A DNA stretch of 42,692 nucleotides from Sphingobacteriales bacterium (lineage in GTDB: Bacteria; Bacteroidota; Bacteroidia; Chitinophagales; Chitinophagaceae): contig JANMHK010000188.1 in NCBI GenBank assembly GCA_031375135.1, positions 1 through 42,692 on the forward strand, given 5' to 3'. The translations under genes were made by a program, and so were the position numbers. Of this stretch, positions 26,307 through 42,692 are shown in pieces; the first letter of the stretch is position 1; the number at the start of each line of letters is the position of its first letter. A model generated the notes under the pieces. That model was not told the DNA's origin. It searched no databases and was given only the letters and a program-made list of their open reading frames with translations.

Positions 26307-26798
26307 ATGAAATCAAATATTATTTTAAGCATCCTGACCCTGTTCATCTTCACTTCAGTGTCAGCACAGAAAAAAGAAACCGTAAAAGTTTGGGGTAATT
26401 GTGGCATGTGCCAGAAAACCATTGAAACGGCTGCAAAATCAGCCGGAGCTTCAGCAGCAGAATGGAACACAGAGACCAAGGTATTGACCGTTGCCTATAA
26501 AGAGAAGAAAACCGACCTCACCAAGATAGAGCAGGCCGTAGCGGCATCTGGTTATGACACCAAGAATTTCACCGCTTCAGATGACGCTTATAACAAGCTT
26601 CACAGCTGCTGCCAGTACGATCGCAAGGCGGGGGCAACTGCATCTTCCGAAAAAGCTGATTGCTGCAAAGATGGCAAATGTGACAAAGACCATAACGAGT
26701 GTGCCAATTGCGAGAAATGCAAAGACGGCAAATGCGCTGATTGTTGCAAAGACGGCGTTTGCTCTACAGGCAAAGACTGCTGCAAGAAAACCAAGTAA
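26307..26798 (+). CDS. Exported heavy-metal-associated (HMA) domain protein with Cys-rich tail
   Basis: Signal peptide (VSA-Q), GNCGMC, HSCCQY, and 12 Cys in the last ~45 aa. Confidence 0.88.
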   Translation: MKSNIILSILTLFIFTSVSAQKKETVKVWGNCGMCQKTIETAAKSAGASAAEWNTETKVLTVAYKEKKTDLTKIEQAVAASGYDTKNFTASDDAYNKLHSCCQYDRKAGATASSEKADCCKDGKCDKDHNECANCEKCKDGKCADCCKDGVCSTGKDCCKKTK

Positions 26799-26816
26799 TA
26801 ATTAAATTAGTAAACG

Positions 26817-26841
26817 GGGGTGGTGCGTTGCATCACCCCTT
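26817..26841 (+). terminator. Intra-operon hairpin (weak terminator or mRNA stabiliser)
   Basis: GGGGTGGTGC-gtt-GCATCACCCC followed by TTAATATATTTT. Confidence 0.55.
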
Positions 26842-26853
26842 AATATATTTTCA

Positions 26854-27402
26854 ATGAAGAAGATCATCCTCATTGTGTTTCTGGGCGTGCTGACCATACC
26901 AGGAATAAGCCAGATCGCGTCGGCCAAATTGCAAGCCAGCGGACTCACTTGCGCCATGTGCGCGAAAGCGGTATATAGCAAACTGGAAAGCCTTCCTTTT
27001 ATTGATAAAATTGATACGGATCTTAATGGGTCTGCTTTTTTGATTGACTTTAAGCAGGGAGTACCTGTTGATATAGATGCGATAAAAAACAAAGTGGAAG
27101 ATGCAGGTTTCAGTGTAGCGATGTTGGACCTAAACGCATCCTTCCATGAAGTTGCTGTAAAAAAAGATGAGCATATCAACTATCACGGCCTTGTACTCCA
27201 TTTTATGGGTGGGAAAGAACAAACCATCCATGGAGACAAAACGCTGCGTGTGATTGACAAGCATTACACAACTGCCAAAGAGCAGAAGAAGTTCAATGGG
27301 CTTACAGATATGGAATGCTTCAAAACCGGTGTAGCTGCTGCCTGTTGTGCTAAAAACGGAAAAGGAGCATCAGAAAGGATCTATCATGTAATGATCAACT
27401 GA
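26854..27402 (+). CDS. Exported HMA-domain protein
   Basis: Signal peptide, GLTCAMC, VEDAGFSV, C-terminal C..CC and RIYHV. Confidence 0.85.
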   Translation: MKKIILIVFLGVLTIPGISQIASAKLQASGLTCAMCAKAVYSKLESLPFIDKIDTDLNGSAFLIDFKQGVPVDIDAIKNKVEDAGFSVAMLDLNASFHEVAVKKDEHINYHGLVLHFMGGKEQTIHGDKTLRVIDKHYTTAKEQKKFNGLTDMECFKTGVAAACCAKNGKGASERIYHVMIN

Positions 27403-28223
27403 TGAAGCGGCTTCTTATTTTCGCTTGCGTCCTGTTTTTCGGGACTGCTGAAGGGCAGGAGTTGTATGTATTTACCGGGCCTGCTTCCAATATGCCTGCG
27501 GGTGCAGGCGGATTAAAATATGCCGCCAAATTACTGGAAGCATCAGATGGAAGAACTGACCAACGGCATATGCTGGAGTGGCAAATGGGTTTTAGTAAAA
27601 AATGGATGACCCATGTCAGTACTTCATTCTCCAATATGTACGGCGATTACCTGCGATGGGAATCTGTCAGAAGCTACACCCAATACCGGTTTTTATCGAT
27701 CGATGATGTACATAGGCATTTCAGGGCAGCTGCTTTCGCTGAGCTCGCCTATAGTGTAAACAGTCCCAGGTATGATGAGCTGTCGCTGGATGGCGATCAA
27801 AGCGGGGTAAGTACAGGCATCATCCTAACCCAACTTCTGCATAAGCTGGCAGTCTCGTCAACGCTTTCATATACATTATCTTTGCAGGACCGTATTGAGC
27901 ATATGGGCATTCATAATTATAACTATAATGCCTTTAATTACAGCCTTTCGGCAGGCTACCTGTTGTTTCCCCGGAAGTATAACGGCTATGGGCAGACGAA
28001 CTTTAATCTATACCTGGAGTTATTGGGAAGTAGGGCCCTCGACAAACAGGCAGGGTTCGTGGATCTTGCTCCTGCAGTACAGTTTATCTTTTCCAGCAGT
28101 ACGAAATTGAACCTGGGTTACAGGTTCCAGCTGGCAGGCGACATGCAAAGGATGGCCAATAACAGTTTTCTTGTCAGTATTGAACGTACCTTTCTGAACG
28201 TCATGAACCGAAAAAACAAATGA
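27402..28223 (+). CDS. Hypothetical outer-membrane beta-barrel protein
   Basis: Signal peptide, QELYVFT.PASN, and alternating amphipathic strands. Coupled to the upstream gene (TGATG). Confidence 0.6.
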   Translation: MKRLLIFACVLFFGTAEGQELYVFTGPASNMPAGAGGLKYAAKLLEASDGRTDQRHMLEWQMGFSKKWMTHVSTSFSNMYGDYLRWESVRSYTQYRFLSIDDVHRHFRAAAFAELAYSVNSPRYDELSLDGDQSGVSTGIILTQLLHKLAVSSTLSYTLSLQDRIEHMGIHNYNYNAFNYSLSAGYLLFPRKYNGYGQTNFNLYLELLGSRALDKQAGFVDLAPAVQFIFSSSTKLNLGYRFQLAGDMQRMANNSFLVSIERTFLNVMNRKNK

Positions 28224-28297
28224 TCCCTCTAGTGAATTATATAAAATCAGTAGCCAAATGGATCAGGCGGTTCTTTAAGAAAGACTGCTGCGCCTAG
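28220..28297 (+). CDS. Unannotated 25-aa ORF MIPLVNYIKSVAKWIRRFFKKDCCA
   Basis: ATGA overlap with the upstream stop. Its TAG directly abuts the MFS ATG, so it fills the gap exactly. Confidence 0.5.
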   Translation: MIPLVNYIKSVAKWIRRFFKKDCCA

Positions 28298-29455
28298 ATG
28301 CGATCCCCGTTGAGCAAAACCATATGGATGCTTTCACTGGTTAGCCTGTTTACGGATATGGCCAGTGAGATGCTGTATCCCGTGATGCCGGTTTACCTGA
28401 AGGCTATCGGTTTCAGCGTGATCTGGATAGGCATACTGGAAGGAGTAGCCGAAGCAGTGGCGGGATTAAGTAAAAGTTATTTCGGGGCCTGGTCCGATCA
28501 CGCGGGCAAACGTCTTCCTTTTGTTCAATTCGGTTATGCACTCAGTGCATTGTCTAAACCCATGATGGGTTTGATGACCCAGGTCTGGTGGATCTTTTCG
28601 GCCAGGACCATAGATCGCCTGGGCAAAGGGATCAGGACAGGGGCAAGGGATGCGCTGCTGAGTGCAGAAGCAACTCCGGCAACCAAGGCTGAAGTGTTCG
28701 GGTTTCATCGGTCCATGGACACGCTTGGCGCAGTGCTCGGTCCTTTGTTTGCCCTGGTTTGGCTGCTTTATCATCCCCAACAATATCTTCCACTATTCAT
28801 CATTGCATTCATACCCGGCTTGTTGGCCATAGCGCTGACTTTTCTAGTTAAAGAAAAGAGCATGGAACCTGGAGTAAAACAAAGGGTTTCTTTACTGGAA
28901 GGATTTAAATTCTGGAAAACTTCCGGATCATCCTACCGAACGGTGGCGGGCGGTTTGCTGGTTTTTGCATTGATCAACAGCAGTGACGTGCTGCTGTTGC
29001 TTAAGATCCGCGAAGCAGGTCATCCTGATCATGTAGTCATAGGCATTTATATCTTCTATAACCTGGTATTTTCTTTGCTGGCATATCCCATAGGACGACT
29101 GGCCGATCGGGTAGGACTGAAGCGGATATTCGTTATAGGTCTTTTTTTCTTCACTATTACTTACGCCGGTTTCGCTTGGGCTAGCCAAATGCTTGTGTTT
29201 GTCGGTTTGTTTTTTTGTTACGGAGTATATGCCGCCTGCACAGAAGGTATTTCAAAAGCCTGGCTCACCAATATCTCGGACCCCCGGCAAATTGGCACGG
29301 CCATCGGCACCTATACTGGTTTCCAGAGTATTGCGTCTCTGTTTGCCAGTAGTGTGGCCGGGTTCATCTGGTACTATGCAGGTCCCGAGGCCGCCTTTCT
29401 TTCTTCCGCCATTGCCAGCTTTGGTGTATTGGTTTACTTTATTTCTAAGACCTGA
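28298..29455 (+). CDS. MFS transporter
   Basis: About 12 TM helices, SLFTDMASEM, DRLGKGIR...RDAL, and GRLADRVG motif A. Confidence 0.92.
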   Translation: MRSPLSKTIWMLSLVSLFTDMASEMLYPVMPVYLKAIGFSVIWIGILEGVAEAVAGLSKSYFGAWSDHAGKRLPFVQFGYALSALSKPMMGLMTQVWWIFSARTIDRLGKGIRTGARDALLSAEATPATKAEVFGFHRSMDTLGAVLGPLFALVWLLYHPQQYLPLFIIAFIPGLLAIALTFLVKEKSMEPGVKQRVSLLEGFKFWKTSGSSYRTVAGGLLVFALINSSDVLLLLKIREAGHPDHVVIGIYIFYNLVFSLLAYPIGRLADRVGLKRIFVIGLFFFTITYAGFAWASQMLVFVGLFFCYGVYAACTEGISKAWLTNISDPRQIGTAIGTYTGFQSIASLFASSVAGFIWYYAGPEAAFLSSAIASFGVLVYFISKT

Positions 29456-29491
29456 CCATCGCCCATTGTTTGGGGTATCAAAAATAAATAC

Positions 29492-29527
29492 TATGTTTGA
29501 CTAATAATTAATTTAGACAAGTCTAAA
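29492..29527 (+). promoter_or_regulatory. -7 promoter element plus DtxR/MntR-like operator
   Basis: TATGTTTG (29492-29499), then the palindrome TTTAGAC-AA-GTCTAAA (29512-29527) 3 nt before the ATG. Confidence 0.7.
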
Positions 29528-29530
29528 AAT

Positions 29531-31696
29531 ATGTTTAGGTCTGGCTTTTTATACGTCATGTTCTTGTTGCTGTCCATCCCCGGCTATGGACAGGCCATTG
29601 GCATGAAGGATACTATGGCCATCAAAAATTTATCCCGCGGTCAAGTGAAATCAGGTGTAGCGCATTTGAATAACCTTACTAGCGACCCTGCCGATACGGT
29701 GCCTGGTTTTATAAAACCAGACATGGATGAAATTGTGGTATCGGGAACTTTGAAACCCATGCGAAAACTGGAAAGCCCGGTTGCGGTTGAAGTGTACTCC
29801 TCCCAGTTTCTTAAGAAAAATCCGGTCCCCAGTATTTTTGAAGCCCTTCAAATGGTCAACGGGGTTCGGCCCCAACTGAATTGTAATGTCTGTAACACTG
29901 GTGATATTCATATCAATGGTCTGGACGGTCCTTATACCATGGTTACCATCGATGGTATGCCCATTGTCAGCGGACTCTCCACAGTCTATGGATTGTTCGG
30001 CATTCCTAATCAGATGATCGATCGGGTGGAAGTGGTGAAAGGACCTGCATCCGGACTGTACGGCTCGGAGGCAGTAGGCGGACTCATCAACATCATCACA
30101 AAGTCTCCCTTGAAAGCACCCTTGGTGTCTGCGGATATTATGGCTACTTCATGGCAGGAGTTCCAGGCCGACCTTTCTGTTTCATTCAAGGCCGGCAAAA
30201 AAACGCGCAGCATGTTGGGCGTTCATGTGTACAATTACAGCAACCCTGTAGACCATAACGGAGATGGTTTTACGGACATGACCCTGCAAAAACGTTTTTC
30301 ATTGTTCAATAAATGGAGCTTCCTTAGAAAGGATGACCGCGTTGCGGATATGGGTATTCGCCTATATCATGAGAACCGCTGGGGTGGCGAAATGAACTGG
30401 AGCAATGCTTTCCGCGGTGGTGACAGTTTGTATGGCGAAAGCATCTATACCAACAGGGCAGAATTTATCGGGCGCTACCAGCTTCCCATGAAAGAGCACC
30501 TGCTGTTTTCCTGGTCATACACTGCTCATAAACAGGATTCTTATTATGGACGCACGCCGTTTATGGCGGATCAGAAAATTGCGTTCGGACAATTAACCTG
30601 GGACAGATCCTATGGTGAACACAGTTTGCTAACCGGCCTGGCCCTTCGCTATAATTTTATGGACGATAATACGCCTGCCACGGCTGATCCTCTTACCGGC
30701 AAGAACAAGGAGAACATCAACTGGTTGCCAGGGATATTTATACAGGATGAGATCAAATTGAATGAACGAAATAACCTGCTGCTGGGTTTGCGATACGACC
30801 ATCACCAGGAACATGGTTCTATTTTTACACCGCGTGTTGCATGGAAATGGAAGGCCGTGAAAAACGGAGTTCTTCGCCTGAATGCGGGCACCGGGTTCAG
30901 GGTAGTGAATATTTTTACTGAAGATCATGCCGCACTAACTGGCGCAAGAACAATTGAGATCAAAGAAGAGATCCGCCCGGAAAAAACCTACAACGTCAAC
31001 CTCAATTATAACCATCGCCTCGTTTTTTCAAATTCATTCCTGACCATGGATGCCAGTGCCTGGTTAACCAGGTTCTCAAACCAGATCATCCCTGACTATG
31101 ATACCGACCCCAACAAGATCATCTACCAGAATTTAAAAGGATATTCGGTTTCCCGTGGCCTTAGCCTCAACGTCGATTATAACATCAATAACCGCTTTCG
31201 TATGATGGCGGGAACTACCATACAAGATGTATTTATCAAAAATGAAAAACAGAATCCGGTAAGACCCGTACTCGTGGAAAAATGGAGTGCTGTTTGGACC
31301 TTGTCTTATAGTTTTCCCGTGCAGGGCATCAACATTGACTATACCGGCAATATTTATGGTCCTATGCGATTGCCTCTGGCCGGTGCGCTTGATCCTCGCC
31401 CTGCCTATTCGCCAGTTTGGTCCATTCAAAACCTACAGGTCAGCAAAAAAATAAAACGGTTCGAATTCTATTGCGGCATCAAAAATCTTCTGAACTGGAC
31501 TCCTGATCGATCTGTTCCATTTTTGATCGCGCGTTCAGAGGATCCTTTCGATAAACAAGTGCAATATGATTCCGGGGGCCAGATCCTTTCTACTCCTCAA
31601 AACCCCTATGCACTGAGCTTTGATCCAACCTATATGTATGCCCCCAACCAGGGTCGAAGAGTGTTTGTGGGACTACGCTTTGCCCTTCAACAGTAA
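29531..31696 (+). CDS. TonB-dependent receptor, probably for metal uptake
   Basis: EIVVSGT TonB-box-like motif, plug with NCNVC, IDRVEVVKGPASGLYGSEAVGGLINIITK, and C-terminal GLRF. Confidence 0.93.
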   Translation: MFRSGFLYVMFLLLSIPGYGQAIGMKDTMAIKNLSRGQVKSGVAHLNNLTSDPADTVPGFIKPDMDEIVVSGTLKPMRKLESPVAVEVYSSQFLKKNPVPSIFEALQMVNGVRPQLNCNVCNTGDIHINGLDGPYTMVTIDGMPIVSGLSTVYGLFGIPNQMIDRVEVVKGPASGLYGSEAVGGLINIITKSPLKAPLVSADIMATSWQEFQADLSVSFKAGKKTRSMLGVHVYNYSNPVDHNGDGFTDMTLQKRFSLFNKWSFLRKDDRVADMGIRLYHENRWGGEMNWSNAFRGGDSLYGESIYTNRAEFIGRYQLPMKEHLLFSWSYTAHKQDSYYGRTPFMADQKIAFGQLTWDRSYGEHSLLTGLALRYNFMDDNTPATADPLTGKNKENINWLPGIFIQDEIKLNERNNLLLGLRYDHHQEHGSIFTPRVAWKWKAVKNGVLRLNAGTGFRVVNIFTEDHAALTGARTIEIKEEIRPEKTYNVNLNYNHRLVFSNSFLTMDASAWLTRFSNQIIPDYDTDPNKIIYQNLKGYSVSRGLSLNVDYNINNRFRMMAGTTIQDVFIKNEKQNPVRPVLVEKWSAVWTLSYSFPVQGINIDYTGNIYGPMRLPLAGALDPRPAYSPVWSIQNLQVSKKIKRFEFYCGIKNLLNWTPDRSVPFLIARSEDPFDKQVQYDSGGQILSTPQNPYALSFDPTYMYAPNQGRRVFVGLRFALQQ

Positions 31697-31710
31697 ATTT
31701 CAGCAGGGAA

Positions 31711-31743
31711 TGTGACCTAAGTCAAGCATTCAATCAGTTGAAT
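31711..31743. promoter_or_regulatory. Two short palindromes upstream of the RND operon
   Basis: TGAC-ctaa-GTCA (31713-31724) and ATTCAA-tcag-TTGAAT (31728-31743). Confidence 0.3.
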
Positions 31744-31762
31744 AAATTATCTTCAGCGGCTT

Positions 31763-34700
31763 ATGCTGAATAAGATCATTCGTTTTTCCGTCAGGAATAA
31801 ACTGATCATCGGTTTGTTGACCATTGGATGGATCATCTGGGGTATCCTGGAGTTGATCAGACTGCCCGTAGATGCCCTGCCCGACATCACCAGTAACCAG
31901 GTTCAGGTATTCACCGTAACGCCTGCACTGGCTTCCCCTGAGGTAGAACGCGTGATTACTTTCCCCATTGAACAGGCCTGCTCAAATATTCCCGGCATCA
32001 AAGAATTCAGGTCTATTTCGCGTTTCGGGCTTTCCGTAGTGACACTTGTTTTTAGCGACAATACCGATATCTATTGGGCCCGCCAGCAGGTTTCAGAAAG
32101 GTTGGTGCGTGTGCGGGATGATATTCCTAAAGGGGCAGGCATTCCCGAATTAGCACCTTTAACTACAGGGCTGGGCGAAATATATCAATACATACTTAAG
32201 CCTGCAAAAGGATACGAAAGCGTATTCGGATTGGATGAGCTCAGGAGCATACAGGATTGGATCGTCCGGCGCCAGCTGCTGGGTACGCCCGGGGTTGCCG
32301 ATGTAAGCAGTTTCGGGGGCTGGCTCAAACAGTACGAAGTGTCCGTGCAGGCCGACAAGTTAAAGTCCATGGGCGTGACGATTGCCGACGTGTTTGATGC
32401 ACTGGAAAAGAATAACCAGAATTCGGGCGGCGCCTATATTGAAAAGGGGAATGAAATGCTTTTCATTCGCACCGAGGGTATGACCGGAACGATCGAAGAC
32501 ATTGAAAAAATCCGGATCAAAACCACGCCTGCCGGATTCCCGGTCTATGTGGGCAGTGTGGCAAAAGTTCGTATCGGCCATGCAGTGAGGTATGGCGCGA
32601 TGACCTACGGTTCACAGGGAGAAGTGGCAGGGGCGGTAGTACTGATGCTGAAAGGGGATAATGCCTCCAAAGTTGTGGCCGATGTAAAACGACGTATCGA
32701 GAAGATCAAAGAGAACCTGCCTAAAGGTGTGCAGCTGATTCCGTATTACGATCGTACCAAAATTGTAAACCGCGCGATACATACGGTCAGGAACAATTTG
32801 TTGGAAGGGGCCCTGATCGTCATATTCATCCTTGTTATCTTCCTGGGCAATCTAAGGGCCAGTTTGATTGTGGCGTCAGTGATTCCCATGTCGATGCTTT
32901 TTGCTGTTAGCATGATGAATTTATTTGGCGTGTCCGGAAACCTGATGAGCCTGGGTGCACTTGACTTTGGGCTGATCGTGGATGGTGCCGTGATCATTGT
33001 AGAAGCCGTGATCCATCGCCTCTATCACAGGCATTTATATGATGGTCTTATTTCGCAGGACGATATGGATCGTGCCGTGGAGACTTCTTCTTCGAGAATG
33101 ATGAATGCCGCGGTATTCGGACAGGCCATCATCCTGATCGTCTATCTTCCCATCCTGTCCCTGACGGGCATTGAAGGAAAAATGTTCAAACCCATGGCGC
33201 AGACCGTCATCTTTGCGCTACTTGGAGCGTTTATCTTGTCGCTCACCTACGTGCCCATGATGACCGCGGTATTTATGGGAAAGAAGGTGAAAGATGGCGA
33301 AGGAATAACCGACCGTATGATGAATGGAATTAAATCGTTTTATGCCAAATCGCTGGAAAAAATATTCCGCTTCCCCAAAACAGTCATGTTGATCTCCATC
33401 GCTTTATTTGTTTTTTCAATCATCATTGCCACGCGCTTGGGCGGTGAATTCATTCCAAAACTGGAAGAAGGTGATTTTGCTGTGGATGCAAAATTACTCA
33501 CTGGTACAACGTTGACGGTAAGTGTTCAAAATTCTCTGCAAGCAGCAGCTATTTTAGAAAAATTTCCGGAGGTAGAAAGAATTGTAAACCGCATCGGCAG
33601 TAGCGAAATTCCAACAGATCCTATGCCCGTTGAGATGACGGACATTATGATCACCTTGAAAGAAAAATCAACATGGACATCAGCCAGCTCATACGAAGAA
33701 CTCGCCAATAAAATGAGTGCCGCATTAAAAGATCTGCCCGGTCTTACAACCGGATTCCAATATCCTATTCAAATGCGTTTCAATGAATTGATCGCAGGAG
33801 CCCGTCAGGATGTGGTGTGTAAAATATTTGGTGAAAACCTTGATACCCTGGCCAGTTATGCTGCAAAACTGGGTGCCACCATTCATGGCATTGAAGGCGC
33901 CCGCGATATTTATGTAGAAACGATCACAGGACTGCCCCAGATCGTGATCCGTTTTAAAAGGGATGCGATGGCGATGTACGGACTTGATATGTCTGATGTG
34001 AACCGAACAATAAGATCTGCGTTTGCAGGTGAATCGGCGGGTAAAGTATATGAGAACGAAAGACGATTTGACCTGGTGGTGAGGTTGTCCGAAACTGCCC
34101 GCCGCAATCTGGACGATGTTCGGCAGTTGCTGATCCATACGGAGAAAGGGACACAGATTCCATTGTATGAAGTGGCAGATATCAAGATCGAGCAGGGGCC
34201 TAATCAGATCCAGCGTGAGGATGCCAAAAGGCGGATCATTGTTGGATTCAATACAAGGGGCCGGGATGTGGAGACCATAGTAAATGAATTACAGCAAAAG
34301 ATCACTGAGCATATGCCGCTTCCCGCGGGATACTATATCGTTTATGGGGGGCAATTTGAAAATCTGGTGGAAGCAAAGCAGCGCTTGACTATTGCTGTGC
34401 CGATAGCACTGGCACTGATCTTCCTGATGCTTTATTTTGCTTTCGGATCACTCAAATACGGGTTGCTGATTTTTACGGCAATACCCCTTTCTGCCATTGG
34501 TGGAATTCTTTCCCTATGGATCCGCGGAATGCCTTTCAGTATTTCAGCAGGAGTGGGTTTCATCGCCTTATTCGGTGTGGCCGTTTTAAATGGTATCGTG
34601 TTGATCACAGAATTCAATCGATTAAAAAATGAAGGCATGACCGATGTGAAGAAGATCATATTGGAAGGCAGTTTACTCAGACTTAGGCCTGTATTGATGA

Positions 34701-36106
34701 CTGCTTCCGTGGCTTCTTTTGGATTTCTTCCGATGGCCCTCAGTCATTCAGCGGGTGCCGAAGTGCAACGTCCCCTGGCTACCGTGGTGATCGGTGGTTT
34801 GATCACGGCAACTTTGCTTACCCTAGTGGTGCTGCCTTTGCTCTACTACTGGTTCAGCGGTGAGCGTAAAACGGGAAGACCGGTCACCTTGTCTGTCATT
34901 TTCCTGTTGGGCAGTTTTACAGTAGTTGCGCAACCCACCGGCAAGCCCATAAGCCTGGACTCCGTGCTGTCCATCGCCAGCAGGCAGAATCTGATGTTGG
35001 AAACAAACAGGAGATCCACGGATTACTGGAACGCCCTCATGTCCAGCACCTTTGATCTGCCTAAAACCCAGATCGGGGCCGAATATGGAAACATAAACAG
35101 CTTAAATAAAGACACCAGGCTGTATATCAACCAAACCTTCATGTTGCCGGCAGTTTACCAGAGCAGAAAAGCATTATACGCTGCTCACCTCACTGCAGGT
35201 AAGGCAGAGATCCGACAAAAAGAAACCGAGTTGAACCGGGAACTTCGCGTCAATTACTACCACCTGCAGGACCTTTTAGGGAGGTATCAATTGCTTCAGG
35301 TACTCGATTCCGCCTATAAAGGATTTATTGAAGCAGCGGCATTGAGGTATAAAACAGGTGAGTCCTCTTTACTGGAGAAAACTTCTGCGGAAACAGAATA
35401 TTCCCGCCTGGTGTTGCAACGCAGGGAACTGTTGGCCGATATCGAGATCCTGCAGGAAAAGAATAACTACCTGTTACGGACAAACGAAAAGCTGATACCT
35501 GATCATATCGATGACAGTATCTATTATTTCCCGGGATCAACAGACAGCCTCTCACATCCCATGCTCGCTTATTGGCAATCGAAGCAGGCGGTTCATGAAG
35601 CAGAAATAAAGCATGAAAAAACGGCTACGCTTCCTGATTTCAATGTTGGCTACAGTAATCTGTCCATTGTTGGATGGCAGACGCCCGACGGGGTAACTCA
35701 GAAATACTATGGTGCCGGCGACAGGTTCAGTACGGTTAGTGTTGGTATCGGTGTTCCCTTATTCAACGGTTCCGTAAAAGCAAGGATGCAAGCCAGTGGA
35801 GTTAGTCGTGATATTGCCCGGCTCCAGGAAAAACAGGTGATGGAATCAATGAAGAGCCGGCAAAAGCAGGTGCTGGCTGAATATGAGAAGTACCGGCTAA
35901 GTGTGAATCATTTCCGGCAGACAGGTCTCAAGCAGGCTGATCAGATCATTAGCCAGTCTATTAAAGCGTACAGGGCAGGCCAGTTAAGTTATATGGAATG
36001 GATCAACCTGATGAACCAGGCCATTACCATCCGTATGGGATATTTGGATGCGCTGCTTGCATTAAGAACCACAACCGCAGAACTGGAATTTATAAATGGC
36101 AAATAA
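31763..36106 (+). CDS. czcA: CusA/CzcA-family heavy-metal RND transporter fused to a C-terminal TolC-like outer membrane factor
   Basis: DALPDIT, GALDFGLIVDGAVIIVE, RLRPVLMTA and EVQRPLATVVIGG motifs, followed by ~390 aa of OEP-like helical region. Confidence 0.93.
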   Translation: MLNKIIRFSVRNKLIIGLLTIGWIIWGILELIRLPVDALPDITSNQVQVFTVTPALASPEVERVITFPIEQACSNIPGIKEFRSISRFGLSVVTLVFSDNTDIYWARQQVSERLVRVRDDIPKGAGIPELAPLTTGLGEIYQYILKPAKGYESVFGLDELRSIQDWIVRRQLLGTPGVADVSSFGGWLKQYEVSVQADKLKSMGVTIADVFDALEKNNQNSGGAYIEKGNEMLFIRTEGMTGTIEDIEKIRIKTTPAGFPVYVGSVAKVRIGHAVRYGAMTYGSQGEVAGAVVLMLKGDNASKVVADVKRRIEKIKENLPKGVQLIPYYDRTKIVNRAIHTVRNNLLEGALIVIFILVIFLGNLRASLIVASVIPMSMLFAVSMMNLFGVSGNLMSLGALDFGLIVDGAVIIVEAVIHRLYHRHLYDGLISQDDMDRAVETSSSRMMNAAVFGQAIILIVYLPILSLTGIEGKMFKPMAQTVIFALLGAFILSLTYVPMMTAVFMGKKVKDGEGITDRMMNGIKSFYAKSLEKIFRFPKTVMLISIALFVFSIIIATRLGGEFIPKLEEGDFAVDAKLLTGTTLTVSVQNSLQAAAILEKFPEVERIVNRIGSSEIPTDPMPVEMTDIMITLKEKSTWTSASSYEELANKMSAALKDLPGLTTGFQYPIQMRFNELIAGARQDVVCKIFGENLDTLASYAAKLGATIHGIEGARDIYVETITGLPQIVIRFKRDAMAMYGLDMSDVNRTIRSAFAGESAGKVYENERRFDLVVRLSETARRNLDDVRQLLIHTEKGTQIPLYEVADIKIEQGPNQIQREDAKRRIIVGFNTRGRDVETIVNELQQKITEHMPLPAGYYIVYGGQFENLVEAKQRLTIAVPIALALIFLMLYFAFGSLKYGLLIFTAIPLSAIGGILSLWIRGMPFSISAGVGFIALFGVAVLNGIVLITEFNRLKNEGMTDVKKIILEGSLLRLRPVLMTASVASFGFLPMALSHSAGAEVQRPLATVVIGGLITATLLTLVVLPLLYYWFSGERKTGRPVTLSVIFLLGSFTVVAQPTGKPISLDSVLSIASRQNLMLETNRRSTDYWNALMSSTFDLPKTQIGAEYGNINSLNKDTRLYINQTFMLPAVYQSRKALYAAHLTAGKAEIRQKETELNRELRVNYYHLQDLLGRYQLLQVLDSAYKGFIEAAALRYKTGESSLLEKTSAETEYSRLVLQRRELLADIEILQEKNNYLLRTNEKLIPDHIDDSIYYFPGSTDSLSHPMLAYWQSKQAVHEAEIKHEKTATLPDFNVGYSNLSIVGWQTPDGVTQKYYGAGDRFSTVSVGIGVPLFNGSVKARMQASGVSRDIARLQEKQVMESMKSRQKQVLAEYEKYRLSVNHFRQTGLKQADQIISQSIKAYRAGQLSYMEWINLMNQAITIRMGYLDALLALRTTTAELEFINGK

Positions 36107-37238
36107 CATGTTGAGATATTTAATAATAGCCACGATCTTATTGACTGCATCCTGTAAAAACGCAGAGAAGGATCAGCCCGTCACAGACGAAGTTGAAGCC
36201 TCAATATCAACGGTGGTGCTGACAGCAGAACAGATCAAAACTGCAGAACTTCGTTTCGGCGGATTAGAGAAGACCAAGCTGGCAGATCTGATCACGGTAA
36301 ACGGGGTCGTGGACGTTCCCCCGCAAAATCTGGTCTCAGTAAGTTTCCCGCTCGGCGGATATCTGAAACGAACAGAATTACTGCCGGGCAAGAACGTGAG
36401 AAAAGGAGAAGTGATCGGGATCATGGAAGACCAGTCTCTGGTGCAGTTGCAGCAAGACTATCTTGTGGGTAAAGAAAAATTACATTACCTGGAGCAGGAT
36501 TTCAACCGCCAGGAAGAGTTGAATGAAAGTAATGTCAATGCAACCAAGGTTTTTCAGCAGGCTGCAGCTGAATTAGGAAGCCAAAAAGTGATGATGCGGG
36601 CCATGGGGGAGAAACTGCGGCTGATCAATATTAATCCCGATAAACTCACAAGCGAAAATCTGTCGAGGAGTGTTCCCCTGTATTCTCCGATCAACGGTTT
36701 CGTCTCTAAGGTCTTTGTAAACCCAGGCAAATATGTTCAGCCTTCCGATGTATTGTTCGAGCTGATCGATCCCGATGATATTCATGCGGCATTGACGGTA
36801 TTTCAGAAAGACATTAGCAAACTGGCAGTAGGCCAGGAAGTAGTCATCAATTTTATTGATGAACCTCAGAAATTCTACCAGGGAAAAGTCATACTGGTCA
36901 ATCGCAGCCTCGATGAAAATCGAAGCGAAGTGGTGCATTGTCATTTTACGGAACATCCCAAAGATCTTCACCCGGGGATGTTTCTACAGGCAAAAATCAA
37001 AACTTCCCCACGTGAGGTGTTAGCGTTGCCGGAAGAGGCCGTTGTTGGATTCCAGGGCCATGAATATATCTTCATTGTGGGGGAAGCCGGAAAATTTGAG
37101 ATCGTGGAAGTAGAAACCGGGATAAGAGAAAAAGGCTTCATTGAAATAAAAAACGCTGGATCCTTTCCTCCTACTGCAAAAATTGTTTTAACCAATGCCT
37201 ATGCCGTTTTAGGAGCGATGAAAAACAGTGGGGAATAG
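36096..37238 (+). CDS. RND efflux periplasmic adaptor subunit (CzcB/CusB-like lipoprotein)
   Basis: Lipobox TASC, VDVPP, SPINGFV lipoyl-like motif and PGMF. Overlaps czcA. Confidence 0.9.
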   Translation: MANNMLRYLIIATILLTASCKNAEKDQPVTDEVEASISTVVLTAEQIKTAELRFGGLEKTKLADLITVNGVVDVPPQNLVSVSFPLGGYLKRTELLPGKNVRKGEVIGIMEDQSLVQLQQDYLVGKEKLHYLEQDFNRQEELNESNVNATKVFQQAAAELGSQKVMMRAMGEKLRLININPDKLTSENLSRSVPLYSPINGFVSKVFVNPGKYVQPSDVLFELIDPDDIHAALTVFQKDISKLAVGQEVVINFIDEPQKFYQGKVILVNRSLDENRSEVVHCHFTEHPKDLHPGMFLQAKIKTSPREVLALPEEAVVGFQGHEYIFIVGEAGKFEIVEVETGIREKGFIEIKNAGSFPPTAKIVLTNAYAVLGAMKNSGE

Positions 37239-37350
37239 GATTGTAGAATTGACGAATTGGCGGATTCGCGGATTATCGGATTAGGAGTTAATCAATTCGA
37301 CAATCCGTCAATTCGATAATCCGTCAATTCGTCAATCCGCCAATCCTATT
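37234..37350. repeat. Palindromic array of degenerate octamers (GRATTNNN)
   Basis: Six forward units (37238-37285) and seven inverted units (37291-37346), with terminal AATAGGATTG/CAATCCTATT inverted repeats. Confidence 0.85.
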
Positions 37351-37660
37351 TATATTCCTGCCTGACCGGGCTGAACACATCCATCACTTTACATGCGGTA
37401 AGTGCTACCGCAGAATGGGGCGTGTTGGAAGGGATCACATGATAACATCCCGGCGTTAATACCATGGTCACGCCGCCTATTGTCATTTCCAGTTCACCTT
37501 CCAGAATATAGGTGATCTGTTCGTGGACGTGATGATGCAGTGGAAGAATGCTGCCTGCTGCGATCTCAACGATACCAACAGTGGAAAGTTCTCCATGAAT
37601 ATACCTTCCGCTAATGCCCTGCGCAAGTTGCTTACTATTGATATCGCCGAGATGATTCAT
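37346..37660 (-). CDS. Cupin domain protein
   Basis: PLHHHVHEQITYILEG, IPSNTPH and DVFSPVR motifs. ATG at 37660. Confidence 0.88.
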   Translation of the reverse strand: MNHLGDINSKQLAQGISGRYIHGELSTVGIVEIAAGSILPLHHHVHEQITYILEGELEMTIGGVTMVLTPGCYHVIPSNTPHSAVALTACKVMDVFSPVRQEYK

Positions 37661-37664
37661 AATT

Positions 37665-38858
37665 TTATTGTTCAAAATAGGCAACTGAAGCACCTACCCA
37701 TTCTTTATCCTGATTATAGCGAACCCCGATCATCTTTCCTTTACTGAGCCTGCTTAGGTTGGTCACCAGTTCCGGTCTGGCCAAACCGTCTTTCCAGATA
37801 TACATCATTCGGATCTCGACTTTGGCTCCGCCATCAGGGGTTTTGATCACGTCGGCGTATTTCACTTTCTTCTGCAGGATCCAGTTTTCAGGATCTTTTA
37901 TTCGTTCCAAATCAGCATGAGTTAGATCGATCACTACACCTTGTCCTGCGAACGAGAACAACGGTTTCAGCACATAGTTCTCCAGGTCTGCCGGCGGTTG
38001 CTTAAGGTCGTTCAGGAAGAAAGTCTGCGGTACAAAAGGATGGTGGATGAATGGAAGCGTATACTTGCTGATCCTGTAGAACCAGTTGGGGTGCGGGATC
38101 CATTTAACGTTCCAGTCTTGCGTGATGTCAATGATAGTACCAAGTTTATCCTTTTGGGCATGAAGATCATCAAAAATGATTCGGTTGTAAATTCTTTTGA
38201 TCTGGATCTTTCTTCCTTCGGAATAATAAAAAAGGTCCCTGCCTTCTGCTGAAACTTCGGTTATACATACCGGTTTGATTCCGATCAGGTCTTGGGTGCA
38301 ATAAAAATCGATCCTGGTTTTCTGTTGATGCGGTTTGATCTCCAACAGTATAACCTCTTCTGTTTTGGCATCACCAACGATCAGTTCCTTCAGAGTTTGA
38401 ATATAAGTATCGCGCGTGTGCCCATTGAAGTAGTGGCTGTAGTTGAGCGGAATATCAAAATGTTTTTCAACCACAGAAGGGTAGTAAGCCTGGAATCCGA
38501 AAAGCGTGGGGAATCCTTGCATTTCAATCAACTGCGGTTCAAGCGCACCCGCCGCATTTTCACAAATGCCAAAATCGAGGGCGATGAAATGGGAGTGGTC
38601 ATTTTCATTGGCTACCCATTCCCCTGGAGGTATAGCCTGATCGGTAGCTGATTTAAAAGCAGGATCTGTAATGATGTCGATAATATGTTCGCAGGCATCA
38701 ATGATCTTGTCGCCAAACCATTTTGGGATGAATTCCGGCGTTTCAGCTATCCTGAAATCAATGGTTCCCGGGTAATGGCTGTTGAGATCATCGAGAAATG
38801 CATGGTATTTTTCTAAGGTGAAGTTTTTATTATAAGCTTCTCTGATCTGTTCTACCAT
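37665..38858 (-). CDS. Circularly permuted ATP-grasp-like ligase
   Basis: DF...LIEMQGFP lies N-terminal to VLKPLFSFAGQGV, WILQKKV and EIRMM, the permuted order seen in glutathionylspermidine-synthase-like ligases. Confidence 0.65.
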   Translation of the reverse strand: MVEQIREAYNKNFTLEKYHAFLDDLNSHYPGTIDFRIAETPEFIPKWFGDKIIDACEHIIDIITDPAFKSATDQAIPPGEWVANENDHSHFIALDFGICENAAGALEPQLIEMQGFPTLFGFQAYYPSVVEKHFDIPLNYSHYFNGHTRDTYIQTLKELIVGDAKTEEVILLEIKPHQQKTRIDFYCTQDLIGIKPVCITEVSAEGRDLFYYSEGRKIQIKRIYNRIIFDDLHAQKDKLGTIIDITQDWNVKWIPHPNWFYRISKYTLPFIHHPFVPQTFFLNDLKQPPADLENYVLKPLFSFAGQGVVIDLTHADLERIKDPENWILQKKVKYADVIKTPDGGAKVEIRMMYIWKDGLARPELVTNLSRLSKGKMIGVRYNQDKEWVGASVAYFEQ

Positions 38859-38867
38859 CGGTGTTGG

Positions 38868-39704
38868 TTAATGGGGGATTGCTAAAACATGATTCACTGA
38901 AAGATCAAGGAAATTAGGAAGGATATGTGAATAGGTCCAAAGGATTTTGTCAGGATCATTCAGGTGATCGATCATGGTCTCCCATTTCTCATACCCGTGG
39001 TTCTCGATGACTGTTTTCTTCTTTTCCTCCCTTTGCAGATACATGCTCATACCGATCGCGTCTGCTTCGGGATGAAACTGCGTTCCGATCATGTACTGGT
39101 TGAATCGAACGGCCATGATAGCCCTCTCCAGTGGGATATGGGGCCTTTCTTTTTCGATACAAAGGATTTGGGCATCCATTTCCTTCAGCTTGTTGTGGTG
39201 GGGTTGGGTGACCTGGTAATCACGACTGTCCACCGCATAAAAAGGATCGTTCAGGCCTTCGAATATCAGTTCCTGCTCAGCGTCTTTCAGCATGTGAATG
39301 GGGAACACACCGAATGCTGTAGACCTTCTTTTTGTTACATGACCAATTTTGTAATGCCTGCACGCGAGTTGGAAGGAATGGCAGATAAAGAACACGTGTT
39401 TCTTGACCTGGTTGGCGGGATCATTGTTCCATTTCTCGACCTGATGCAGCCAATGGAAATATTTTTTCTCCCATTCGGAGCCCAGCGATTCAATGGGGCT
39501 GCCGGGACCGCCACTGGAGATGTACATGTCGTACGACAGATCCGGAATTTCCTTTCCTAATCGTACATCAAATTCATCCCAGCTTAGTTCAAGCTGATTG
39601 GCATCGCTGTATTGGTTGAGAATTTCCCTGATACAACGCATGCCCTGGTTTTCGACTCCCTCGTAAAGGTCCAGTATGGCTACTTTAAAAGATTTTTCCG
39701 CCAT
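38868..39704 (-). CDS. Class I glutamine amidotransferase-like protein
   Basis: SSGGPGSP, FICHSFQ (nucleophile Cys) and QFHPE (His-Glu). Own -7 element TAATTTTG at 39714-39721. Confidence 0.88.
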   Translation of the reverse strand: MAEKSFKVAILDLYEGVENQGMRCIREILNQYSDANQLELSWDEFDVRLGKEIPDLSYDMYISSGGPGSPIESLGSEWEKKYFHWLHQVEKWNNDPANQVKKHVFFICHSFQLACRHYKIGHVTKRRSTAFGVFPIHMLKDAEQELIFEGLNDPFYAVDSRDYQVTQPHHNKLKEMDAQILCIEKERPHIPLERAIMAVRFNQYMIGTQFHPEADAIGMSMYLQREEKKKTVIENHGYEKWETMIDHLNDPDKILWTYSHILPNFLDLSVNHVLAIPH

Positions 39705-39753
39705 GATCAGTGCCAAAATTAATGATTTTTTAAGCTTTCGGCTTTACTAAAGT

Positions 39754-39780
39754 AAAAGGGCAGCCTTTTGACCGCCCCTT
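39754..39780 (-). terminator. Intrinsic terminator after ybdK
   Basis: Minus strand AGGGGCGGTC-aaaa-GGCTGCCCTTTT. Confidence 0.6.
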
Positions 39781-39800
39781 CTTAACGTCATTTTAAGCGG

Positions 39801-40913
39801 CTAGAGGCGAGCCAGGAATTGTCCTGATATAAAATCAGCCACACTCACCAGATTTTTGGTCTCTTCAAATACCTTGAGCTGACGATCTGCGCCTGTACCA
39901 TTGTCGAGTATCTTCTGTACAAGTTTTAAGCCTTCCCTGCAGCCGAGGTCGTCTGCCACATCATCTACAAAGTCCAGCAATTCGTAGATCAGAACGCGGG
40001 TATTCACTTCTTCTTCTTTTCCAAAATCGATCATCTGTCCGTCAATTCCATACCGGGAAGCGCGCCATTTGTTTTCATTGACCAGTTGGCGGGGATAGAT
40101 CATGAAATTGAGGTTCTTCGATCTCAGTTTATAGAGTTTCGCGCAAAGGCACTGAAAAATAGCCGTTATGGCGATGGTGTCGTCTACGGTGAGGGGAACG
40201 TCGCATATCCTGAACTCCACTGTGCCAAAAAAAGGATGTACCCTGAGGTCCCACCAGATCTTTTTAGCATTGTCTATACAATTGGTTTTAATGAGAATAT
40301 TTACATAGTTCTCATAACTGCTGTAGCTGTCGAAATAATCCGGAATTCCGGTTCTTGGGAATTTATCAAAGACTTTCGTCCTGAACGATTTAAAGCCCGT
40401 GAGGCGGCCCTCCCAAAAAGGTGAGTTGGTACTCAGGGCAAACACGTGGGGGAGGAAATAGCGGGCTGAATTGGCTATATGGATGGCCATTTCCTGGTCA
40501 GGCATACCTACATGGACATGTAGACCGAAAATGAGGTTGCTGCGTGCAGCTTCCTGCATTTCATTGACTATTTCCCGGTAGCGGGCATGATCAGTGATCA
40601 GTTGGCTTTCCCAGTGTGAGAAAGGGTGGGTGCCTGAAGCACCCATCTTGAAACCGAGTCCGTCTGCAATACCTGATATGGTGGTCCGCAGGGTAGTGAC
40701 GTCTTTGTAAGCCTCCTCAATGTCCTGGCAGATGTCCGTTCCAACTTCAACAACGGCCTGGTGCATTTCTGCCTTCACCTTGTCTTTGATGATCTTCTGG
40801 CCTTCGGTCACGATCTTCTGTTCATGGCTCCTCAATTCCCTCGTATTGGGGTCGATCACCATATATTCCTCTTCCACGCCCAGGGTAAAATGCTTGTAGC
40901 TGAAGTTTGCCAT
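39801..40913 (-). CDS. ybdK: Carboxylate-amine ligase (YbdK / glutamate-cysteine ligase 2 family)
   Basis: TLGVEEE, VEV, GTHPF, FGLHVHVG, NSPFW, WWDLR, TVEFRICD and ENKWRASRYG motifs. Confidence 0.93.
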   Translation of the reverse strand: MANFSYKHFTLGVEEEYMVIDPNTRELRSHEQKIVTEGQKIIKDKVKAEMHQAVVEVGTDICQDIEEAYKDVTTLRTTISGIADGLGFKMGASGTHPFSHWESQLITDHARYREIVNEMQEAARSNLIFGLHVHVGMPDQEMAIHIANSARYFLPHVFALSTNSPFWEGRLTGFKSFRTKVFDKFPRTGIPDYFDSYSSYENYVNILIKTNCIDNAKKIWWDLRVHPFFGTVEFRICDVPLTVDDTIAITAIFQCLCAKLYKLRSKNLNFMIYPRQLVNENKWRASRYGIDGQMIDFGKEEEVNTRVLIYELLDFVDDVADDLGCREGLKLVQKILDNGTGADRQLKVFEETKNLVSVADFISGQFLARL

Positions 40914-40933
40914 CTTGGTTAGTTATTATGGGG

Positions 40934-41887
40934 TCAGGCCAATGGGGTTTTCGCAGCGCTGCGTTTGATGTATTCACCCCAGGTGAGGTTATCCATACCT
41001 TCCTGCTGCGCCTGGGCCCTTTCGATGGCATAGGAAGCCGCGGTTTCTACTACCCAGTCGAAATTCTCCTGACCTACACTTCTTATATCGGCATCAGGGG
41101 CGGGATTGCAGAAGTCGATCGCATAAGGTATTCCATCGCGGGTAGCGAGTTCCACGGTATTGAAATCGTAACCCAGGTAATGATTGATACGAAGTACAAT
41201 TTCTTCCATCATCTTGTATTCTTCAGGTGAAGTTTCAAAACTGGCTACATAGCGGAGATGATGCGGATTGCGTGGTTCATAAGGCATGATCCGTACGTGT
41301 TTACCGCCGATACAATAGCAGCGATAATATTTTTCGAACACGATCTCTTCCTGCAACAGCATCACCAGTTGTCCTGTTTCTGCATGTTTCGCAAAAAAAT
41401 CGTCCATGCTGTCTAAACGGTAAACGTTTTTCCAACCACCGCCGGCGAAAGGCTTCATATAGGCGGGAAAGCCCACATAGTCGAAAATGGTTTTCCAGTC
41501 CAATGGATAGGCGAGGTTTGAGAAAGAATCATCTGTGGTATCATCCGGGAGGTCCCTGGAAGGTAGGATCACGGTTTTAGGCACTGGCACGCCTATTTTG
41601 GTGGCCAGGGCATTGTTGAAAAATTTCTCATCTGCACTCCACCAGAACGGGTTATTGATGACCGCTGTTCCACTGATCGCTGCATTCTTCAGAAAAGCCC
41701 GGTAAAAAGGCACGTCCTGCGATATTCTGTCGATGATCACAGCATAACCGCTGGATTCACCTTGCATAACCTTGTCAATAGATACTGGTTCTGCCATAAT
41801 GCCCGGTACCTGTTTGTTGTTCACCCTTTCAACGAAGGCCTCGGGGAATGATCGTTCTTTGCCAAACAATACGCCTATCTTTTTCAT
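40934..41887 (-). CDS. RimK/glutathione-synthetase-like ATP-grasp protein
   Basis: VINN, DEKF, VPKT, FPAYMKPFAGGGWKNV, LQE, YRCY and AIDFCNPAPD motifs. Confidence 0.85.
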   Translation of the reverse strand: MKKIGVLFGKERSFPEAFVERVNNKQVPGIMAEPVSIDKVMQGESSGYAVIIDRISQDVPFYRAFLKNAAISGTAVINNPFWWSADEKFFNNALATKIGVPVPKTVILPSRDLPDDTTDDSFSNLAYPLDWKTIFDYVGFPAYMKPFAGGGWKNVYRLDSMDDFFAKHAETGQLVMLLQEEIVFEKYYRCYCIGGKHVRIMPYEPRNPHHLRYVASFETSPEEYKMMEEIVLRINHYLGYDFNTVELATRDGIPYAIDFCNPAPDADIRSVGQENFDWVVETAASYAIERAQAQQEGMDNLTWGEYIKRSAAKTPLA

Positions 41888-41937
41888 GCTTTGATGTATT
41901 TATGAGATCCTTATGAATTAGGGGGATGGGGTTTAAT

Positions 41938-42006
41938 CAAATATATTTTTATCAGTAGAATAAAACAAATAAGGCCGCCTGATTTTTGTATCATGGATTA
42001 TATTTG
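41938..42006. promoter_or_regulatory. Divergent -7 promoter elements for the ATP-grasp operon and the esterase
   Basis: TATATTTG on the minus strand (41938-41945) and on the plus strand (41999-42006). Confidence 0.6.
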
Positions 42007-42012
42007 AATGAT

Positions 42013-42692
42013 ATGCTGACTAAGAAAGAGTCGTTGATCCTTGTTGAACGGCATGACATATACTCAAAGCACCTGAACAGGGATGTTGTGGTTGATTTCT
42101 TTTTGCCTACGAACGTTGAAGATCCCGCTAAGATGAGTCTGCTGCTCATCAATGATGGGCAGGATATGGAAACGATGGGTTTCCGGACTATACTAGAGAA
42201 GATCTATGCCGAAGGGGCGATCAGGCCGGTGATGTTTGCGGCTGTCCATGCCGGTAAGGACAGGAAAAATGAATACGGCACGGCCAATCATCCCGACTAT
42301 AAAAATCGGGGGGCAAAAGCAGGGAAATACACCTATTTCGTATTTCAGGAATTGATGCCCCATATCCGTAAACAGTATCACGTTCCCGAGTTCCGCGATA
42401 AATCGTTTGCCGGATTTTCACTCGGCGGCTTAATGGCACTTGATGTTGTTTGGAATCACCCGGCTGAATTTTCACATGTAGGGGTATTCAGCGGCTCCCT
42501 ATGGTGGCGGTCGAAGGGTTTGGATGATGGGTATGATGAAGATCAACACCGGATCATGCATGCCGAGATCCGCTCGGGTCAGTATGCCCCTTGGCTAAAG
42601 TTCTTTTTTCAAACTGGTGCGATGGATGAGACGGCCGACAGGAATAAGAACGGCATCATTGATTCAATTGACGATACCCTTTCGTTGATCGA
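42013..42692 (+). CDS. Alpha/beta-hydrolase esterase (Fes/IroE-like), runs off the right edge
   Basis: Not in the ORF track. My translation: MLTKKESLILVERH..SKHLNRDV..LLLINDGQD..RKNEYG..ELMPHI..AGFSLGG (GxSxG)..FSGSLWW. Confidence 0.88.
   Translation, partial: MLTKKESLILVERHDIYSKHLNRDVVVDFFLPTNVEDPAKMSLLLINDGQDMETMGFRTILEKIYAEGAIRPVMFAAVHAGKDRKNEYGTANHPDYKNRGAKAGKYTYFVFQELMPHIRKQYHVPEFRDKSFAGFSLGGLMALDVVWNHPAEFSHVGVFSGSLWWRSKGLDDGYDEDQHRIMHAEIRSGQYAPWLKFFFQTGAMDETADRNKNGIIDSIDDTLSLI

What the first reader, a model, noticed from the sequence alone, without database searches (positions are those of the whole stretch)
37346..42692. Triple amide-ligase cluster (ATP-grasp, YbdK, permuted ATP-grasp) with GATase, cupin and esterase: unknown peptide or gamma-glutamyl metabolite system
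Seen: three ATP-dependent amide-bond-forming enzymes of different types, a class I GATase with an intact Cys-His-Glu triad, a cupin, and a divergently transcribed GxSxG esterase. No precursor peptide, NRPS or transporter is visible. Known: YbdK-family enzymes gamma-glutamylate amines with only weak cysteine activity, ATP-grasp and permuted ATP-grasp enzymes build glutathione-like peptides or protein tags, and class I GATases can act as gamma-glutamyl hydrolases. Such neighbourhoods have been predicted computationally, but I know of no identified product. Inference: non-ribosomal synthesis and turnover of a glutathione analogue, storage oligopeptide, osmolyte or reversible protein modification.
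Basis: partly seen in the sequence, partly recalled or inferred. Interest (0 to 1): 0.8.

Follow-up and report, generated by a model that had tools for sequence, protein, structure and literature searches.

The report
Widespread three-ligase peptide-building gene set
Three different ATP-driven ligase genes and their hydrolase partners travel together through about a quarter of the Bacteroidota genomes sampled and likely build and take apart a small peptide-like molecule that has not been identified; the neighbouring cupin gene is probably a bystander.

Summary
The minus strand carries a RimK/LysX-fold ATP-grasp, a YbdK ligase (PRK13515, over cut-off), a class I GATase-fold enzyme with an invariant Cys-His-Glu triad, a permuted ATP-grasp (YgiC/glutathionylspermidine-synthetase fold) and a cupin. 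A divergent esterase is cut off by the contig end.

Of 251 phylum genomes, 68 hold the ATP-grasp orthologue. Of these 68, all hold a second esterase (unlinked here), 67 a permuted ligase, 58 the YbdK and 43 the GATase. The GATase slot is filled instead by an M29 aminopeptidase in 7 genomes (never both) and in 38 of 39 soil-metagenome loci, which points to a peptide hydrolase rather than an ammonia donor. The cupin is poorly conserved. No precursor peptide or carrier protein was seen.

Best reading (0.55): free-standing synthesis and trimming of a short, probably gamma-glutamyl, cytoplasmic peptide or peptide-amine. Substrates and reaction order are inferred. Plain glutathione is unlikely.

I recall that Iyer 2009 predicted this kind of neighbourhood, but could not read the paper. 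This scan has reported the system before in at least 8 other genomes. My searches found no characterised member.

The parts
40934..41887 (-). RimK/LysX-fold ATP-grasp ligase, 317 aa, no Pfam model; anchor gene of the system. Conserved K88, K145, Q179, R189, E246, D258, N261. The metal ligands are swapped relative to RimK (D248...E260-x-N262).
   Evidence: (TIGR00768 E 1e-5, below cut-off)
39801..40913 (-). YbdK/GCS2 carboxylate-amine ligase, PRK13515 subfamily, 370 aa; predicted gamma-glutamyl donor step
   Evidence: (E. coli YbdK 1r8g, E 1e-46)
39755..39781 (-). GC-rich hairpin between YbdK and the GATase, a likely terminator (about -18.8 kcal/mol, z -3.5, 0 of 200 shuffles as stable in the 46-nt fold; z only -1.9 in the 87-nt fold; not listed by the simple terminator scan)
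38868..39707 (-). Class I GATase-fold cysteine enzyme, 279 aa from ATG 39707; triad C109/H212/E214, plus Q113 and G66-G67-P68-G69; predicted gamma-glutamyl or peptide hydrolase
37665..38858 (-). Circularly permuted ATP-grasp ligase (YgiC/Gss/eukaryotic glutathione-synthetase fold), 397 aa, no Pfam model. Invariant D95, E112, R226, K265, R370; E-x-Q instead of E-x-N; no R-x-D arginine; near-invariant E348-x-R350.
37346..37660 (-). Cupin_2 protein, 104 aa, with KdgF among its structural relatives; starts 4 nt after the permuted ligase but is poorly conserved with it; likely accessory or bystander
41938..41969 (-). Bacteroidota primary-sigma promoter match (TTTG-N20-TATATTTG) about 50 nt upstream of the ATP-grasp gene; conserved in relatives
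   Evidence: 27 of 78 loci; shuffles mean 0.07, max 2
42010..42692 (+). Divergent alpha/beta-hydrolase (PF00756, GFSLG), cut by the contig end and continued on contig C491; accessory esterase common in close relatives
   Evidence: (73 of 80 loci)

Best explanation
The genes encode three ATP-dependent ligase folds and two kinds of hydrolase that stay together across many bacteria, and they likely form a free-standing, ribosome- and NRPS-independent route that builds a short cytoplasmic peptide or peptide-amine and trims or recycles it. Shown: folds, conserved active-site residues, co-occurrence, slot exchanges and a conserved promoter match. Inferred steps: (1) YbdK would join the gamma-carboxyl of glutamate to an amino acid or amine; (2) the RimK/LysX-fold enzyme would add a further amino acid through an acyl-phosphate; (3) the permuted YgiC/Gss-fold enzyme would couple the peptide's C-terminal carboxyl to a last amino acid or a polyamine, using R350 in place of the missing R-x-D arginine; (4) the GATase-fold enzyme, or the M29 aminopeptidase that replaces it, would remove the N-terminal (gamma-)glutamyl or amino-acid unit, as maturation or as turnover; (5) the unlinked core esterase would be the hydrolase or transferase partner of the RimK-fold enzyme. 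The order of steps and all substrates are untested.
Against: There is no biochemical or expression evidence. YbdK was not found in 10 of 68 genomes that all keep the GATase, so the GATase cannot always remove a glutamyl group placed by YbdK. 18 of 68 genomes show neither GATase nor M29 with these queries. Both ATP-grasps depart from canonical catalytic motifs, and residue equivalences rest on motifs and fold, not on a residue-level superposition. Fold identity to any characterised enzyme is only 10-18%, so substrates cannot be transferred. In close relatives the set is often split: the GATase lies in only 16 of 64 loci with at least 1.5 kb after YbdK. The core esterase also occurs in 12 genomes without the ATP-grasp orthologue.
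Confidence: 0.55

Rival explanations
1. Reversible protein tagging: the RimK/LysX-fold enzyme and the other ligases would add amino acids to a protein or carrier encoded elsewhere, and the hydrolases would remove them.
For: The top folds of the anchor gene are RimK, ArgX and LysX, which act on protein C-termini (their activities recalled). The anchor gene is the most constant member.
Against: No conserved small ORF or target gene in 160 loci. The closest folds of the permuted ligase act on small molecules. A solute symporter is linked in one family. An unlinked target cannot be excluded.
Confidence: 0.17
2. Glutathione or a homoglutathione-like thiol: YbdK would make gamma-Glu-Cys, the permuted ligase (eukaryotic glutathione-synthetase fold) would add Gly or another unit, and the GATase would act like GGP1.
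For: Fold matches to yeast, plant and human glutathione synthetase. No GshA (PF04262) or GshB (PF02955) in this genome. The GATase resembles GGP1.
Against: This reading does not explain the anchor ATP-grasp and core esterase, the two most constant members. YbdK is missing in 10 of 68 genomes. No GST_N match in this genome. BshC (bacillithiol) is present here and in 50 of 50 system-positive genomes tested, though also in 27 of 30 negative ones. The weak cysteine activity of YbdK is recalled.
Confidence: 0.12
3. Glutamine-dependent amidation: the GATase would release ammonia from glutamine for the permuted ligase, which would amidate a carboxylate.
For: Intact triad and glutamine-binding Gln; 9-nt gap and adjacency in 34 of 43 genomes; unusual E-x-Q active site.
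Against: The same slot holds an M29 aminopeptidase or an amidohydrolase elsewhere, and GATase and M29 never co-occur in 251 genomes. The best family matches are stand-alone GATases (PRK09065 in 39 of 39 members; GMP synthase in 2 of 39).
Confidence: 0.08
4. Storage polymer like cyanophycin or poly-glutamate, built by the ligases and mobilised by the peptidases.
For: One locus lies beside cyanophycin synthetase, cyanophycinase and a glycogen branching gene; two others lie beside glgC or amylomaltase genes. Synthetase and hydrolase genes are paired.
Against: Cyanophycin synthetase is in 10 of 50 system-positive and 8 of 30 negative genomes. The storage neighbours differ from locus to locus.
Confidence: 0.08

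Closest known systems
Predicted CP_ATPgrasp_2 (PF14403) / GCS2 / alpha-beta-hydrolase / amidohydrolase small-peptide neighbourhood (Iyer et al. 2009, Mol Biosyst 5:1636; content recalled, paper not held)
   Same: Same parts list as recalled. In 11 sampled genomes a distinct permuted-ligase clade occupies the slot; 2 of 3 such proteins scanned passed the PF14403 cut-off.
   Different: The window's permuted ligase does not match PF14403 (0 hits; 6 of 117 homologues at E<=0.01) and has E-x-Q without R-x-D, whereas 7 of 7 PF14403-type proteins have R-x-D...E-x-N. The hydrolase here is a class I GATase or M29.
E. coli glutathionylspermidine synthetase/amidase Gss and peptide-spermidine ligases YgiC/YjfC
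   Different: 11-15% identity. Gss R316 and N332 equivalents are replaced. The hydrolase is a separate GATase or M29 gene. No glutathione genes were found in this genome.
RimK / LysX / ArgX amino-acid ligases
   Different: 14-17% identity; E246/D258-x-x-N261 instead of D248/E260-x-N262; no LysW-like carrier or S6 gene nearby; below the TIGR00768 cut-off.
E. coli YbdK (GCS2) and gamma-glutamyl protect/deprotect pairs (PuuA/PuuD, EgtA/EgtC; recalled)
   Same: True YbdK-family member next to a class I GATase-fold hydrolase.
   Different: PRK13515 subfamily with unknown amine; the GATase follows the permuted ligase, not YbdK; similarity to PuuD is only local.
Plant gamma-glutamyl peptidase GGP1
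   Same: Cys-His-Glu triad, Cys+4 Gln and shared structural neighbours (PMC12958103).
   Different: No direct sequence hit to GGP1 structures; substrate untested.
Fungal E-64 ligase Cp1B / AnkG
   Different: 14% identity; secondary-metabolite clusters with tailoring enzymes, none of which were seen here.

Membership tests
YbdK/GCS2 carboxylate-amine ligase (PRK13515, TIGR02050, PF04107) | Score above curated cut-offs | tested here: met
   PRK13515 519.8/371; TIGR02050 295/176.4; PF04107 205.9/21
YbdK/GCS2 carboxylate-amine ligase | Gamma-glutamyl ligase activity and identity of the amine | not testable with these tools
   Needs an enzyme assay
ATP-grasp superfamily (40934-41887) | Pre-ATP-grasp plus ATP-grasp fold with ATP-binding lysines and metal ligands | tested here: met
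RimK family (TIGR00768) | Score above cut-off 143.4 | tested here: not met
   25.1 bits; works-like claim only
RimK/LysX systems | Linked protein substrate or carrier (S6, LysW) | tested here: inconclusive
   None seen in 160 loci; an unlinked substrate is not excluded
Circularly permuted ATP-grasp fold (Gss/YgiC/eukaryotic GS) | Permuted topology over the whole chain | tested here: met
CP_ATPgrasp_2 (PF14403) | Score above gathering cut-off 32 | tested here: not met
   No hit for the window protein; 6 of 117 homologues weak
Glutathionylspermidine synthetase / YgiC (PF03738) | Pfam match and R-x-D...E-x-N catalytic motif | tested here: not met
   10 of 117 homologues weak; position 93 is A/Q/V/L, position 114 is Q in 115 of 117
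Class I GATase (PF00117) | Score above cut-off and Cys-His-Glu triad | tested here: met
   29.9/22.8 bits; triad invariant in 39 of 39
Glutamine amidotransferase complex | Physical coupling to a synthetase and glutaminase activity | tested here: inconclusive
   Adjacent in 34 of 43 genomes but replaced by M29 elsewhere; activity not testable
Canonical bacterial glutathione pathway | GshA (PF04262), GshB (PF02955) and glutathione-using GST genes | tested here: not met
   No match in this 98.6%-complete genome; controls rang
Iyer 2009 predicted permuted-ATP-grasp peptide system | Permuted ATP-grasp + GCS2 + alpha/beta hydrolase + amidohydrolase/peptidase neighbourhood (definition recalled) | tested here: inconclusive
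   The parts list matches, but the paper could not be read and the window ligase is outside PF14403
Graspetide / RiPP systems | Linked precursor peptide | tested here: inconclusive
   No conserved precursor seen; ORF clustering went down to 45 aa in the 80 metagenome loci and 90 aa in the 80 close loci

The most novel reading that the evidence does not exclude
The set makes an unrecognised, housekeeping-level cytoplasmic metabolite, a gamma-glutamyl peptide or peptide-polyamine conjugate distinct from glutathione, bacillithiol and glutathionylspermidine. It would be shared by a quarter of Bacteroidota and by soil Acidobacteriota-like bacteria, built by two unmodelled ATP-grasp families with rewired catalytic motifs, and cycled by interchangeable peptidases.
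Probability: 0.4. Interest if true: 0.75.

Novelty: new variant of a known kind. Interest (0 to 1): 0.52.

Why it matters
If right, abundant soil and freshwater bacteria make a common small molecule that has not been identified, from a compact five-gene set that is directly testable. Cultured relatives carry the set, or most of it near one locus (for example Flavihumibacter petaseus, Pedobacter sp. and Mucilaginibacter spp.). It would give a physiological reaction for a YbdK-family ligase, a long-open question (recalled), and add two ATP-grasp families without Pfam models as possible amide-forming biocatalysts. The exchange of GATase and M29 in one slot and the two clades of permuted ligase narrow down which experiments to run.

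Full report
Setting. The window is contig C145 of a 3.7-Mb, 98.6%-complete genome. Its closest relatives are mostly titled Chitinophagaceae, so that placement is inferred. The finding runs to the contig end.

Active sites. The permuted ligase keeps D95, E112, R226, K265 and R370 in 117 of 117 sequences. It has Q114 (115 of 117) where E. coli Gss has N332, and it lacks the arginine of the Gss R316-x-D318 motif; E348-x-R350 is kept in 116 of 117. RimK (D-I-R) and this genome's other permuted ligase (G-I-D plus D-L-R-P) show the same arrangement, so I infer that R350 supplies the arginine. The anchor ATP-grasp keeps K88, K145, Q179 and R189, but has E246 and D258-x-x-N261 where RimK has D248 and E260-x-N262. 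These equivalences come from motifs and fold, not from a residue-level superposition.

Transcription. A TTTG-N20-TATATTTG match at 41938-41969 (minus) fits the Bacteroidota primary-sigma consensus (PMC7366714, one passage read). It is one of 2 matches in the window, with 0.6 expected, which alone is not significant. But 27 of 78 relatives have it within 130 nt upstream of the gene, against a shuffle mean of 0.07 and maximum of 2. A hairpin after YbdK (z -3.5 on 46 nt, -1.9 on 87 nt) suggests two units: ATP-grasp plus YbdK, and GATase plus permuted ligase plus cupin. This fits the frequent split in close relatives.

Close relatives. In the best 80 of 593 confirmed loci, ATP-grasp, YbdK and the divergent esterase occur in 80, 78 and 73; GATase in 17, permuted ligase in 15, cupin in 4. 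Many loci are short: of 64 with at least 1.5 kb after YbdK, 16 hold the GATase and 11 directly.

Whole genomes. I searched the same 251 phylum genomes with each gene (tallies in 78 and 133). The anchor matched 72; I set aside 4 distant matches (32-41% identity; the three fetched stand without the other genes), leaving 68. YbdK matched 65; I set aside 6 at 37% identity or less, leaving 59. Of the 68, the core esterase is in 68 (and in 12 other genomes), the window-type permuted ligase in 56, YbdK in 58, the GATase in 43, and all four window genes in 29. Eleven of the 12 genomes without the window-type ligase have a PF14403-type ligase directly after the anchor gene; its relatives are named Rhodothermales. 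Only one genome has both types. An M29 peptidase is in 7 genomes, all anchor-positive and GATase-negative. In four fetched loci an Amidohydro_3 gene precedes the permuted ligase, and in three a sodium:solute symporter does, two of them in frame. All 43 GATase genomes have a permuted ligase, adjacent in 34. Against a simple scheme, 10 GATase genomes lack the YbdK orthologue and 18 of 68 show neither GATase nor M29. Related genomes are not independent, so I give no P values. In this genome the core esterase lies alone on C525.

Beyond the phylum. Eighty metagenome loci (52-64% GC, no taxonomy given; Acidobacteriota-like is inferred) show the order esterase, ATP-grasp, YbdK, M29, permuted ligase. 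The counts are 51 of 61, 41 of 48, 38 of 39 and 27 of 29 loci with enough flanking DNA, and no GATase. No conserved precursor, carrier or transporter stood out among the top ORF clusters, which beyond the five genes looked mostly like shadow frames (judged by eye).

Mechanism. The GATase sits where an aminopeptidase or amidohydrolase sits elsewhere. Its family matches are stand-alone GATases, and it shares triad, Cys+4 Gln and structural neighbours with plant gamma-glutamyl peptidase GGP1 (PMC12958103, passages read). I therefore read it as an amide hydrolase paired with the permuted ligase, as amidase is paired with synthetase in Gss. YgiC and YjfC ligate peptides to spermidine (PMC12568646, passages read). 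With a gamma-glutamyl ligase and a RimK-fold ligase added, the most economical product is a short cytoplasmic peptide or peptide-amine that is built and trimmed (0.55). Rivals are a protein tag (0.17), a glutathione-type thiol (0.12), glutamine-dependent amidation (0.08) and a storage polymer (0.08). This genome has no GshA, GshB or GST match but has BshC. BshC is in 50 of 50 system-positive and 27 of 30 negative genomes; cyanophycin synthetase is in 10 of 50 and 8 of 30. These 80 handles were chosen by me from the 251.

What is known. I recall that Iyer et al. 2009 and the PF14403 description predict a permuted ATP-grasp with GCS2, alpha/beta hydrolase and amidohydrolase making small peptides. 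I could not read the paper and saw only its citation. PMC2588565 (passages) predicts glutathione-related peptide synthesis for other carboxylate-amine ligase plus GATase neighbourhoods. PMC13674229 (part 1 of 5) concerns different, NHISS-linked clusters. Searches listed no study of this operon. Earlier notes of this scan report the same system in 8 shown of 16 look-alike windows; they are unchecked AI notes and add no independent support.

Verdict. The system is real, widespread and uncharacterised as far as searched. It is a variant of a predicted kind rather than a new category. The cupin is probably incidental, and the essential esterase lies outside the window. Interest 0.52.

Noticed in passing
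window 37235-37350: A long imperfect palindrome built of short repeated units lies between the converging efflux operon and the cupin (fold z about -10). Related sequence occurs at 46 places in the genome, so it is a REP-like repeat family.
   Followed up: partly
L152:4890-7538, L153:4637-7240, L139; protein P0126: A sodium:solute symporter is in frame with the permuted ligase in two genomes and a separate adjacent gene in a third; an 870-aa database protein shows the same join. It may be a true fusion or read-through.
   Followed up: partly
L177 (G026:C1:1918000-1935000): An expanded cluster with a fourth ATP-grasp, an M17 aminopeptidase and two esterases, flanked by a glycogen branching gene on one side and cyanophycin synthetase, cyanophycinase and asparaginase genes on the other.
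   Followed up: partly
L181 (G000:C493:17767-21897): A separate canonical PF14403 permuted ATP-grasp cluster in the same genome, followed by genes that look like alpha-E and transglutaminase (labels recalled) and preceded by a gene that looks like a phytanoyl-CoA-dioxygenase relative.
   Followed up: no
L124 (G170:C70:9099-13292): A genome without the anchor ATP-grasp keeps the permuted ligase next to a distant (28%) YbdK-like gene: a possible reduced two-ligase variant.
   Followed up: no
P0162, P0173, P0204, P0209: Permuted-ligase homologues of 549-586 aa with an N-terminal extension of about 160-190 residues that begins like a signal peptide and has no Pfam match.
   Followed up: no
L158, L159, L160: Distant (32-41%) homologues of the anchor ATP-grasp stand without the other genes; one precedes an 1803-aa protein with AMP-binding, enoyl-CoA hydratase and dehydrogenase domains.
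   Followed up: no
L011, L037, L074: In three close relatives an Amidohydro_3-like gene (about 32% identity to the query) is inserted between YbdK and the GATase.
   Followed up: no
window 26307-37238: A run of genes that look like metal-binding proteins, a TonB receptor and a CusA/CusB-type efflux pair; the 1447-aa transporter appears fused to an outer-membrane-factor domain (read from sequence, labels recalled).
   Followed up: no
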